Source: Callorhinchus milii (lineage: Eukaryota). From it: 64,000 nucleotides of DNA. The stretch lies in assembly GCF_018977255.1 (NCBI RefSeq), contig NW_024704748.1, positions 14,508,001 through 14,572,000 of the forward strand. Reading direction: 5' to 3'. A program made the position numbers. The stretch's first letter is position 1; each line of letters opens with the position of its first letter. Shown one piece after another: positions 1 through 3,000 of the stretch.

Positions 1-3000
1 TCCACAGGGATTATAGTCTTACCTTTAAGGTTTGAACTGTGATTCAAACCTTGGACTTTCTGGTCACTGTGGCCTTGTGCTTCCCAATAGCTCTGAGGCA
101 CCTGAGAGCTAGATTTTACATCTATAAAATCTCTGTTTAACTGCAAAATGAAATGGCAGAATTGTTCTGCAGTTCTTACCACTCACACATTCAGTTGGAG
201 TTTAGCTTGGTTTATCCCATTTCCATTCAGGGTTATATTCAGTGTCATTTTGTGTTTGGTGAAATGGGGTGGGTGGGTGAGGGGAAGTGTAGTGAGATGT
301 GACTTTGGTCTCCCTTTATGCATTTTTTGCTTTTCCTGTGAACATCAACTTGAACCCTCAGAGCTTTCTGAGCCTTTGGTCATACAATGACTGCAACATA
401 GGACAGAGGTCAATGATGGCTGATGATAATTGTATATTTGTAGAAAAATTAGCTACAGCCAAATAATGAACAGATCTATGTCAGCTGTACATTACTGAAG
501 TCACAGGGAAAAGCTCCAAACCCCAAGTGCGTTGAGATGTCCAAGGACATTAAATTACTTTCTTCCAGAACCTGAGTGGAATAGAAAGGTCAGCTAATGG
601 TTGTAATTACCTAAACTGGCTCTTATCACAAGTTACTTATGTAAACGTTGGAGCACCTGATCAATAAGAGTGCACTGCAAACATTAATGAGAGCTGAGGT
701 TTGTAGCTTTATGTAGCTGGTAATGTATGTCTTGCTACACCATTAATAATTAATATTTAAATAGTGAAATGCAGACATTGAGTGGTAAGCAAAGCAAAAA
801 GATGATGTCCGACTTTGTAGTGTTTAGTTACCAGACGTACCAATATCAATCAGGTGTCTGACACCTGATTGATATTGCAGAACTCCATTTCAAAGGTGGT
901 GCTGCACCATAGTGCTTTATTGAGAGCAGAGTAGTCTGGAACTGCTGTATTGTAGAACGCCTGTCTAAATCTGGAGTGCTATATATTATGATGAGTTTAT
1001 TTATTAGCAGTCAGCAACAGAAAAAAAAGGGAATATAGCGGTTCCAGTAGTGTGAGGCCGTATCCATTTATTATGCTTGTCACCGTTATCAGTATTTCCT
1101 TTTCAGTCAGCTCTACTGCCGCTATATAATTCAATACGCTCAATGGGTGATTTCAAGGAAAATCCAAATAAAATATTTTATTTGGGAAAAGAACTGTGCA
1201 CAATATATTTAAAACCACGATAGCATAGTTAGTAGCTGGCAGGGCATTTGAAGCACAAAGTAAACAGAGGTTCATAAACCCTCTGTACACCTGATTCCTT
1301 TGGATTCTTTTGGTTTATTTGGTTCGTCAGAGCTGTTTGAATGCAGTGTCATAAGAGAAACCTGTTGCTCATTTGCTGTACACAAAACATAAATGTAAAA
1401 CATGAGTATCAGTACAGAATTTTATCTCACGCTCTCACTATAGTACAGCTGAATGCAAGTGATTAGAGAAAGTATTTTAACTGCTGCGTCAATCGCGTGC
1501 TCTCCGATATTGCCATTATGGGGTGTGTGTGTGTAAAACTAGATTGCGCACATCTGGATGGTTGCTGGTTCAATCCTTTGTGCTGAGTTAACTGGTTCCT
1601 GCTGTAATCGGGGTGGTTGGGAATTGGGGCAAGGAAGAGTAGCATTACAATTGCACTCAAGTTTAAGTTAAACATGAAGCAGGAGTCCTGCCTCTGATCT
1701 CTGTCCAGACTCCTGCTGGAAGTTCACATGTGGGCATAAGAATCGAGTTCAAGTGATGGGTTTCTACGTGTAAAAAAAGTATTAAAATTAATAGTAATTA
1801 ACATCATATTTTAGTTTATAAAATAACTAATTCTTTTTTTCTTCTTTCTTTTTAGGTAAGTTTATCCTTTGCACCTGTGATATGTTATAATAATGAGATA
1901 ACAAGGGAGTAGCAGGATGACTGCAGCCCTATACACACACACACGACTGAGCACCCCGGAGGCTGTGGAGAGGACAGCTCTGCAAAGACCAATTGGTAAT
2001 ATTGTCCTTTAACCTTGTCTTGCAACCGCCTGGAAGGGAGAGCTTGGAAGAAGCAGTCTTTCCAAGAGGTTAATGGTTGTGCTTTGCTTCTGTGTGGTGC
2101 TAGGCTGCTGTTCTAAGTGGAGCAGGTGTAAGGACTCTGGGCACCCTTGCTGTGACTGGCTCTGATTATTATTCAATAATGAAATTGCTGCTTAAGAATC
2201 TTATTTTTATTGAAGAGCGAATGATTCCAGGGGGACAGTATTTGTTAAAAGTCACTAATCAAAGCAGGTGCTTTTTTTAAAAGGACTAAATACTGTAAAT
2301 TCCACAGCATCACAACAGGCCCATTCTGTCGTCTTATCAGTTAGCAGCGAGAAATAAATTCAATGCCTTAGTCTGAGCACTGCCAAATTTTTTTTTGCAC
2401 TCCACGTGGGGAGGAAGATGATAAGGAGATTAAACAAAATGGAGGAAAACTGCTTCTGTGCGTCTTTGTAAAAATGCCAATAATGAGTCTCTCAGATATA
2501 ATGCAATAGGGAGTCCTCTCAATACTTTATCGAAATAATAATAATATAAATGGCAACTCTTCATGTATGTGCCTTCATGGCGAGCATCACTGGGCTCTAA
2601 AGCCTTAAAGAGTATCAAAACCAAGCTTGATCCTTGTCTGAAGTCCATGGATGTGCGCTTTGCAGCAGAAATCACTAGATAGCATTGAACTGAAGGAAAT
2701 CAGGAGGGCACAAAGGCAAAGTCCAGCAGCACAACCACTGGTCTGCTTGAGATCAGCCAACTGAGCACAGACTGGGAATTGAAACTAGTTGGGACCTTCA
2801 ATGCTGTACGCACTAGGCCCAGTAATGTATAATAACAGTCAGAGCAAAGTTACAAGCACATTGTCTGGAGAATAGTGGTTGCTCGCAAACAAAATCGCAG
2901 GGCACCAGTGCTATTGATTAGTTCTCTTTTCCCTCACGTATGAAATATTCTCACATTCTGCCACATGTCAGCTGCCCGTCCAAGTGATGCTGGCTCTCAC

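What the first reader, a model, noticed from the sequence alone, without database searches (positions are those of the whole stretch)
1824..2001. Consensus recursive splice site with a candidate RS-exon in a very long exon-free region
Seen: a branch-like TAACTAAT, a long pure pyrimidine tract and TAG immediately followed by GTAAGT. A possible downstream donor TTG|GTAATA at 1996 would define a 140-nt exon (1856-1995) containing stop codons, and no coding exon is recognisable in the next 62 kb. Established: vertebrate recursive splicing uses AG|GURAG sites followed by RS-exons in very long introns of neuronal genes such as CADM1/2, ANK3, NTM, OPCML, ROBO2 and HS6ST3. Inference: this window is a giant + strand intron removed in steps, and the site may be an ancient gnathostome RS site.
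Basis: partly seen in the sequence, partly recalled or inferred. Interest (0 to 1): 0.7.

Follow-up and report, generated by a model that had tools for sequence, protein, structure and literature searches.

The report
Candidate recursive splice site, unproven
A near-perfect back-to-back splice acceptor and donor motif sits in unique DNA of what looks like a chimaera (cartilaginous fish) genome, but sequence alone cannot show that it is used to remove a giant intron in steps.

Summary
These are TAACTAAT at 1824-1831, a 23-nt pure pyrimidine run at 1831-1853, TAG|GTAAGT at 1853-1861 and TTG|GTAATA at 1993-2001.

The core (pyrimidine tract + AG|GTAAGT) is rare for one window: about 0.0005-0.007 are expected, and it appeared in 0 of 400 simulated windows. 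Over a 1-Gb genome, chance alone still gives about 8-110 such sites.

The branch-like motif and the downstream donor, and so the "RS-exon", are at chance level. yUnAy lies upstream of 41% of all AGs. Four donors of this quality were seen where 4.06 were expected.

The window is not human. Its CR1 reverse transcriptase and tRNA-Ala SINE point to a holocephalan such as Callorhinchus.

Transcription of the + strand is hinted at but not shown. G and T are in excess in 28 of 32 bins, and GGTRAG occurs 36 times on + against 15 on -.

Host gene, RNA usage and conservation could not be tested, because no vertebrate genome or transcriptome collection was on hand.

My odds:
- recursive splice site: about 0.35
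- unused chance motif: about 0.38
- ordinary non-coding or ATG-bearing exon: about 0.15

The parts
1815..1819 (+). alternative branch-point-like yUnAy (TTTAT, A at 1818, 37 nt before the G of the AG)
   Evidence: such motifs precede 41% of all AGs
1824..1831 (+). TAACTAAT; the yUnAy core CTAAT is at 1827-1831, with the branch A at 1830, 25 nt before the G of the AG
   Evidence: the distance fits the 20-50 nt enrichment reported for human RS sites (Zhang 2018, PMC6110456, passages)
1831..1853 (+). pure pyrimidine tract, 23 nt (19 T, 4 C); no AG between 1815 and 1853
   Evidence: one of 14 pure Y runs of at least 18 nt on both strands; TRF lists it as a weak period-11 repeat
1853..1855 (+). TAG, candidate 3' splice site (junction after 1855)
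1856..1861 (+). GTAAGT, a perfect intronic half of a 5' splice site; it would be rebuilt as NNN|GTAAGT after joining to an upstream exon
1856..1995 (+). candidate RS-exon of 140 nt; stops in all three frames; 47% GC against 22% in the 116 nt upstream; holds a (CA)6 run
1917..1994 (+). ATG-led open frame of 26 codons running to the candidate donor (rival reading: a start-codon exon)
   Evidence: read; the 36-aa stop-to-stop ORF 1902-2009 found 0 relatives
1996..2001 (+).
2069..2074 (+). alternative donor GAG|GTTAAT (6 of 9; exon would be 213 nt)
2128..2133 (+). alternative donor GGT|GTAAGG (5 of 9, with GTAAG contiguous; exon would be 272 nt); overlaps CAG|GTGTAA at 2126
2353..2358 (+). AATAAA about 500 nt downstream of the acceptor (rival reading: cryptic last exon)
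   Evidence: read; AATAAA occurs 58 times on the + strand, so this is near chance

Best explanation
At 1815-1861 on the + strand lies a complete, near-consensus 3' splice site: branch site CTAAT with its A at 1830, a 23-nt U-rich tract, then UAG. It abuts a perfect intronic half of a 5' splice site, GUAAGU.

I read it as a vertebrate-type recursive splice site inside a long + strand intron of a cartilaginous-fish gene, which would work as follows. The upstream exon is first joined to position 1856. That join rebuilds a strong donor, NNN|GUAAGU. This donor then outcompetes the weak donors downstream (GUAAUA at 1996, GUUAAU at 2069, GUAAGG at 2128). The 140-272-nt stop-laden 'RS-exon' is therefore removed together with the rest of the intron.

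What is shown: the motif, its rarity within the window, and its unique, non-repeat context. What is inferred: + strand transcription, any use by the spliceosome, which downstream donor defines the exon, and any age or conservation.
For: - Motif quality: 20 of 20 pyrimidines, then YAG|GTAAGT. It is the only one of 6 AGGTRAGT sites with a tract.
- Rarity: 5.4e-4 to 0.007 expected per window, and 0 of 400 simulated windows.
- Branch A lies 25 nt upstream, with no AG between 1815 and 1853.
- The rebuilt donor (6 of 6 intronic positions) is stronger than any donor in the next 300 nt (5-6 of 9). This matches the published rule that efficient RS of cryptic RS-exons needs an RS 5'ss that outcompetes the downstream one (Blazquez 2018, PMC6224609, passages; Zhang 2018, PMC6110456, passages).
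- There are stops in all frames. In Zhang 2018, 68% of RS exons carry premature stops.
- The region is unique. It has no other copy in the window and no likeness to the window's SINE beyond shuffled controls (best 21.1 bits against 16.8-24.0 in 20 shuffles).
- Strand hints: S_GC +3.6%, S_TA +2.5%, and G+T excess in 28 of 32 bins. This is the sign reported for the non-transcribed strand of vertebrate introns (Polak 2010, PMC2927911, passages). GGTRAG is 36 on + against 15 on -, p=0.011.
- No CpG island and no recognised exon in 64 kb.
Against: - No host gene, strand, transcript or orthologous sequence could be examined.
- Over a genome of about 1 Gb, chance alone gives about 8 (pure-run estimate) to about 110 (>=18/20 Y estimate) such sites.
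- In vertebrates, consensus ratchet sites are no commoner on the sense than on the antisense strand of >50-kb introns: chicken 0.105 against 0.102 and zebrafish 0.112 against 0.120 per 100 kb (Shepard 2009).
- In human, 36,870 motif-plus-conservation candidates yielded 16 sawtooth sites (Zhang 2018).
- The proposed RS-exon donor and the branch motif are at chance level.
- A (CA)6 run lies inside the candidate exon.
- The - strand carries two relaxed RS-like motifs of its own, at 35049 and 25288.
- GTRAGT (24 against 12, p=0.11) and AWTAAA (106 against 112) give no clear strand signal.
- Skews can also come from replication. Transcription-linked asymmetries differ between fishes and mammals and were not studied in cartilaginous fishes.
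Confidence: 0.35

Rival explanations
1. Chance motif (a pseudo-site). A T-rich pyrimidine microsatellite-like run happens to abut AGGTAAGT in intergenic DNA, in a - strand gene, or in an intron where it is ignored or used only at noise level.
For: - Genome-wide chance expectation is 8-110 sites per Gb.
- The window has 14 pure Y runs of at least 18 nt, and TRF calls this one a weak period-11 repeat.
- Vertebrate sense/antisense ratios of ratchet sites are about 1 (Shepard 2009).
- Donor and branch motifs are at chance level.
- (GT)n and (CA)n runs flank and enter the region.
- Relaxed RS-like motifs also occur on the - strand.
Against: The motif is perfect on both halves, and 0 of 400 simulated windows reach it. 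It lies in unique DNA. The strand hints agree with the strand of the motif.
Confidence: 0.38
2. An ordinary exon that happens to begin with GTAAGT, i.e. an 'annotated RS-exon' in the sense of Blazquez 2018. It could be a 5'UTR exon, a start-codon exon (ATG at 1917), a poison cassette exon or a lncRNA exon. It would be kept in the mRNA because the exon junction complex represses the rebuilt donor.
For: - In human, putative RS-exons among annotated exons number in the thousands, and 93.8% (n = 6,416) are constitutive. High-confidence intronic RS sites number about 10 (PMC6224609, passages).
- GC rises from 22% to 47% at the acceptor.
- An ATG at 1917-1919 with A at -3 opens 26 codons up to the donor.
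Against: - Stops in all three frames exclude an internal coding exon.
- The 36-aa ORF holding the ATG frame found 0 proteins among 1.84 billion representatives. This is a weak negative: N-termini diverge, and the query is short.
- All donors within 300 nt are weak.
Confidence: 0.15
3. Cryptic or alternative last exon. The strong acceptor at 1855 is paired with the AATAAA at 2353-2358, giving intronic polyadenylation, as described for long neuronal introns.
For: AATAAA lies about 500 nt downstream and is followed by a T-run at 2388-2397. Cryptic last exons in long introns are a known class (PMC7997972, search listing and abstract only).
Against: AATAAA occurs 58 times on the + strand, about one per 1.1 kb, so its presence is near chance. 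By established knowledge of U1 telescripting (recalled, not from a call), a perfect U1 site at the start of the exon should suppress nearby polyadenylation.
Confidence: 0.05

Closest known systems
Vertebrate recursive splice sites with cryptic RS-exons (Sibley et al. 2015: CADM1/2, ANK3, NTM, OPCML, ROBO2, HS6ST3; known to me only through later papers)
   Same: A juxtaposed YAG|GTAAGT, a long pyrimidine tract, a branch motif 20-50 nt upstream, a rebuilt donor stronger than the downstream donors, a stop-laden downstream segment, and a setting in a long exon-free stretch.
   Different: There is no evidence of use, host gene, strand or conservation. The downstream donor is no better than chance. 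The organism is a cartilaginous fish, for which my search found no report of recursive splicing (1 paper holds both terms, an unrelated review, listing only).
Drosophila ratchet points / zero-nucleotide recursive splicing (Burnette 2005; Duff 2015; as described in PMC2773006 and PMC6224609)
   Same: The consensus (Y)nNCAG|GTAAGT is matched, except that TAG stands for CAG.
   Different: In flies such sites are about 20-fold enriched on the sense strand of large introns. In vertebrates they are not, so the motif alone carries far less weight here.
Annotated RS-exons repressed by the exon junction complex (Blazquez 2018, PMC6224609)
   Same: An exon-like segment beginning with a strong 5'ss directly after its acceptor.
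   Different: Those are mostly constitutive coding exons. This segment has stops in all frames and no protein match.
Intronic pseudoexons, decoy exons and cryptic last exons (PMC8819188, PMC7373989, PMC7997972; listings and abstracts only)
   Same: Strong splice-site-like motifs deep in long introns.
   Different: Those classes do not require a donor abutting the acceptor.

Membership tests
Vertebrate recursive splice site with RS-exon | 3' splice-site AG immediately followed by GT (AGGT, ideally YAG|GTRAGT) | tested here: met
   TAG|GTAAGT at 1853-1861
Vertebrate recursive splice site with RS-exon | Strong 3' splice site (pyrimidine tract, branch motif 20-50 nt upstream; MaxEnt >= 5 in Zhang 2018) | tested here: met
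   20 of 20 Y, 23-nt pure run, CTAAT with its A 25 nt upstream, and no AG between 1815 and 1853. MaxEntScan itself was not available, so no score was computed.
Vertebrate recursive splice site with RS-exon | Rebuilt 5' splice site strong, and stronger than the RS-exon's own donor | tested here: inconclusive
   The intronic half matches 6 of 6, against 5-6 of 9 for the downstream donors. The exonic half depends on the unknown upstream exon.
Vertebrate recursive splice site with RS-exon | A downstream 5' splice site that defines an RS-exon | tested here: inconclusive
   Four donors with at least 5 of 9 matches lie 30-300 nt downstream, and 4.06 are expected by chance.
Vertebrate recursive splice site with RS-exon | Lies in a long intron, on the sense strand of an expressed gene | tested here: inconclusive
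   No annotation was on hand. Indirect signs only: + strand G/T excess in 28 of 32 bins, GGTRAG 36 against 15 (p=0.011), no CpG island, no recognised exon.
Vertebrate recursive splice site with RS-exon | Evolutionary conservation of the site | not testable with these tools
Vertebrate recursive splice site with RS-exon | RS junction reads, lariats or saw-tooth coverage in total or nascent RNA | not testable with these tools
   No RNA data were on hand.
Annotated (EJC-repressed) RS-exon | The segment is part of a mature transcript; if internal and coding, it has an open frame | tested here: not met
   For the internal coding case, there are stops in all three frames. The UTR, start-codon and lncRNA cases stay open: the ORF 1902-2009 gave 0 hits, and transcripts could not be tested.
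Drosophila-type ratchet point | (Y)nNCAG|GTAAGT, enriched on the sense strand of large introns | tested here: inconclusive
   The motif is met with TAG. Enrichment cannot be judged from one window: relaxed matches are 2 on + and 2 on -.

The most novel reading that the evidence does not exclude
The site is a working recursive splice site in the giant first intron of a neuronal adhesion or guidance gene of a holocephalan. It is orthologous to a tetrapod RS site, so stepwise removal of that intron has been kept since the gnathostome ancestor more than 400 million years ago. That would be the oldest dated recursive splice site in vertebrates.
Probability: 0.1. Interest if true: 0.55.

Novelty: new member of a known kind. 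Interest (0 to 1): 0.3.

Why it matters
Whether the mechanism is needed for giant introns is still debated (bioRxiv 10.1101/2025.08.14.666599, passages).

A used site in a cartilaginous fish would show that recursive splicing of long neuronal genes predates the split between bony and cartilaginous vertebrates. An orthologous one would show this more strongly, and would point to which introns have been under that constraint. If it is a chance motif, the finding is a useful reminder that in vertebrates even a perfect consensus carries little weight without RNA evidence.

Tried and rejected
- **Repeat origin.** Self-BLAST of 1200-2800 against the window gave only three 18-19-nt matches at E 0.085-0.30. 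A sensitive comparison of 1400-2200 with six SINE copies gave at best 21.1 bits, against 16.8-24.0 in 20 shuffles. No repeat origin is shown.
- **Known RNA families.** Rfam at gathering thresholds found only 5 tRNA-like SINE heads. At E<=1 over 1-4000 it added only a weak bxd_1 match (20.6 bits against a cutoff of 75). The - strand reading ACTTACCT is not a U1 gene.
- **RNA structure.** The fold of 1740-2060 has z = +0.59, and 72 of 100 shuffles fold as well.
- **Start-codon exon.** The 36-aa ORF 1902-2009 found 0 proteins.
- **Host gene from exons.** A crude acceptor/donor/open-frame scan gave 20 exon-like segments, 12 on + and 8 on -, with none compelling. Of 829 stop-to-stop ORFs of at least 40 aa, none carries an Ig-like D.[GAS].Y.C or ankyrin TPLH motif. 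Pfam on 10 of the 63 ORFs of at least 90 aa hit only RVT_1.
- **Literature look-up of the site.** Two 13-nt forms were searched, and the single paper found was unrelated.
- **Sibley 2015.** The paper is not held.
- **Searches not used.** I did not scan genome contigs, which holds prokaryotes only, and did not use the remaining two homologous-protein searches.

Full report
**What is in the sequence.** Reading 1500-2400 confirms every element at the stated coordinates:
- TAACTAAT at 1824-1831
- an unbroken pyrimidine run at 1831-1853 (23 nt: 19 T and 4 C)
- TAG at 1853-1855, abutting GTAAGT at 1856-1861
- TTG|GTAATA with its GT at 1996

The 140-nt segment 1856-1995 has stops in all three frames. 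The yUnAy core CTAAT puts a branch A at 1830, 25 nt before the G of the AG. A second candidate, TTTAT, has its A at 1818. No AG lies between 1815 and 1853. GC is 22% in 1740-1855 and 47% in 1856-1995, but it does not fall after the proposed donor (50% in 1996-2160).

**Is it more than chance?** The core motif is, for one window.
- AGGTAAGT occurs twice on each strand.
- Of the 6 AGGTRAGT sites, only this one has a pyrimidine tract: 20 of 20, against 3-12 of 20 for the rest.
- Acceptor-like sites with >=18/20 Y plus YAG number 15 on both strands, and P(GTAAGT after AG) is 4.7e-4. That gives about 0.007 expected per window.
- Starting instead from the 14 pure Y runs of at least 18 nt, the estimate is 5.4e-4.
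- In order-3 Markov simulations, 0 of 400 windows had such a site at >=18/20 Y, and 3 of 400 at >=16/20 Y.

Scaled to a 1-Gb genome, however, chance alone gives about 8 to about 110 such sites. One hit in a genome-wide scan is therefore not proof.

The remaining parts of the observation carry no weight. yUnAy lies 18-40 nt upstream of 41% of all AGs. The donor matches 5 of 9 consensus positions, as do 24% of + strand GTs. Four such donors lie 30-300 nt downstream, at 1996, 2069, 2126 and 2128, where 4.06 are expected. The 'RS-exon' is therefore not defined by sequence: 140, 213 or 272 nt are all possible.

**Whose genome?** I do not take this window for human.
- It has no 7SL-type repeat. The only Rfam matches are five tRNA-like SINE heads, and ARAGORN reads all five as tRNA-Ala.
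- The SINE is about 320 bp with an (ATT)n tail. It occurs in 21 pieces, 12 on + and 9 on -, at 68-95% identity to the reference copy, itself one of the 21.
- This fits the published description of the CmiSINEs. They have a tRNA-Ala head and an L2-2_CM-like tail, and are reported only from the holocephalan lineage (PMC5499810, passages). I had no consensus to align against, so the match is to the description only.
- A CR1-type reverse-transcriptase ORF at 40578-41573 (Pfam RVT_1) finds its best named relatives in cartilaginous fishes. Callorhinchus milii proteins reach 77-78% identity, and Hypanus, Leucoraja, Pristis and Mobula 62-67%. Bird and turtle copies are near 50%.
- CpG observed/expected is 0.32.

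The window is thus most likely holocephalan (lineage). The single N at 5900 was left unresolved.

**Context.** Only 4,415 of 64,000 bases recur within the window, mostly the SINE. The region 1200-2800 is unique and unlike the SINE beyond shuffled controls, so no repeat origin of the tract or acceptor is shown. There is no CpG island. Of the 63 stop-to-stop ORFs of at least 90 aa, I put 10 to Pfam, and only the reverse transcriptase matched. None of the 829 ORFs of at least 40 aa has an Ig-like or ankyrin signature. This agrees with an exon-free stretch but cannot exclude short exons.

**Strand.** On the + strand, G exceeds C by 3.6% and T exceeds A by 2.5%. G>C holds in 13 of 16 4-kb bins, as does T>A. 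G+T>A+C holds in 28 of 32 2-kb bins. [quoted passage not shown] Cartilaginous fishes were not in that study, and replication can give the same sign.

U1-site-like GGTRAG occurs 36 times on + and 15 on -. Against all other permutations of the same letters (p0 = 0.54), this gives p = 0.011. GTRAGT, at 24 against 12, gives p = 0.11. AWTAAA is 106 against 112. Together these are a modest hint that + is the sense strand of a transcription unit.

**What the literature says about the prior.**
- Human work lists about 10 efficient intronic RS sites, against 197 in Drosophila (Blazquez 2018, PMC6224609, passages).
- Zhang 2018 found 36,870 putative sites by motif, 3'ss strength and conservation, of which 16 showed a saw-tooth. 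Branch motifs were enriched 20-50 nt upstream, rebuilt donors were mostly stronger than RS-exon donors, and 68% of RS exons carried premature stops (PMC6110456, passages).
- Shepard 2009 counted consensus ratchet sites per 100 kb in >50-kb introns against their complements. Human gave 0.122 against 0.082, chicken 0.105 against 0.102, zebrafish 0.112 against 0.120 and fly 2.196 against 0.101 (PMC2773006, passages). In vertebrates most consensus matches are therefore not distinguishable from chance.
- Hoppe 2023 saw no raised vertebrate-wide conservation at lariat-supported sites (PMC10156609, passages).
- Zebrafish cadm2a carries a tested RS exon (PMC5126111 and bioRxiv 10.1101/2025.08.14.666599, passages).
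- The founding paper (Sibley 2015) is not held, so I know it only through these sources. Supplementary site lists were closed.
- A search for 'recursive splic' together with 'shark' found 1 paper, an unrelated review (listing only). A look-up of the site's 13-mers found nothing relevant.

**Weighing.** I set the few perfect-consensus true RS sites expected per vertebrate genome against about 8-110 chance sites per Gb. Chance sites need not fall in an exon-free stretch whose skew has the right sign. My resulting odds are:
- working recursive site: about 0.35
- unused chance motif: about 0.38
- ordinary non-coding or start-codon exon beginning with GTAAGT: about 0.15
- cryptic last exon using the AATAAA at 2353-2358: about 0.05

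The start-codon reading was tested as far as possible. The ATG at 1917-1919 opens 26 codons to 1994. The 36-aa ORF 1902-2009 found 0 proteins among 1.84 billion representatives. This is a weak negative.

**Limits.** These are the host gene and strand, use of the site in RNA, conservation in sharks, coelacanth and tetrapods, and a MaxEnt-type splice score.

**Verdict.** The interpretation can be neither supported nor refuted here. If real, the site is a new member of a known kind, and interest is modest.

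Noticed in passing
window 3917-4246 (+), 9860-10181 (-), 29096-29415 (+), 33442-33751 (+), 50619-50931 (-), plus 16 shorter pieces: A SINE family of about 320 bp with a tRNA-Ala-like head and an (ATT)n tail. It occurs in 21 pieces (12 on +, 9 on -) at 68-95% identity. It fits the published description of the holocephalan-specific CmiSINEs, and the young copies (94-95%) suggest recent activity.
   Followed up: partly
window 39771-41573 (+): A CR1-type LINE remnant. Three ORFs in different frames (39771-40127, 40052-40360, 40578-41573) indicate frameshifts. 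The last carries RVT_1 and is 77-78% identical to Callorhinchus milii proteins.
   Followed up: partly
window 4725-5830 (+): ORFs that look like the C-terminal part of an L2-type LINE ORF2 (recalled resemblance; Pfam found nothing). They are followed at 5607-5654 and 5783-5830 by two matches to the SINE's tail (SINE positions 256-304). This is what is expected if the SINE borrows this LINE's 3' end.
   Followed up: partly
window 841-877: A near-perfect 37-nt palindrome (two 18-nt arms around one base), seen in the sequence and as a self-match on the opposite strand. Its meaning is unknown; it could be a hairpin or a transposon footprint.
   Followed up: no
window 35049 (-) and 25288 (-): Two relaxed recursive-site-like motifs on the minus strand: TTTTCAG|GTAAGA with 16 of 20 Y, and ATTTCAG|GTAATC with 15 of 20 Y. 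They show that weaker versions of the motif arise on either strand.
   Followed up: partly
window 48323-48331 (+): A perfect 9 of 9 donor consensus, CAG|GTAAGT, just right of a SINE fragment. The segment 48229-48325 is open in one frame and has a moderate acceptor (15 of 20 Y). It is too short to search as protein.
   Followed up: no
window 1523-1536 and 1933-1946 (+): A (GT)n run about 320 nt upstream and a (CA)n run about 80 nt downstream of the site. They could pair in RNA and loop out the acceptor. This is speculative and was not tested beyond the unremarkable fold of 1740-2060.
   Followed up: no
window 5900: A single N; left as it is.
   Followed up: no
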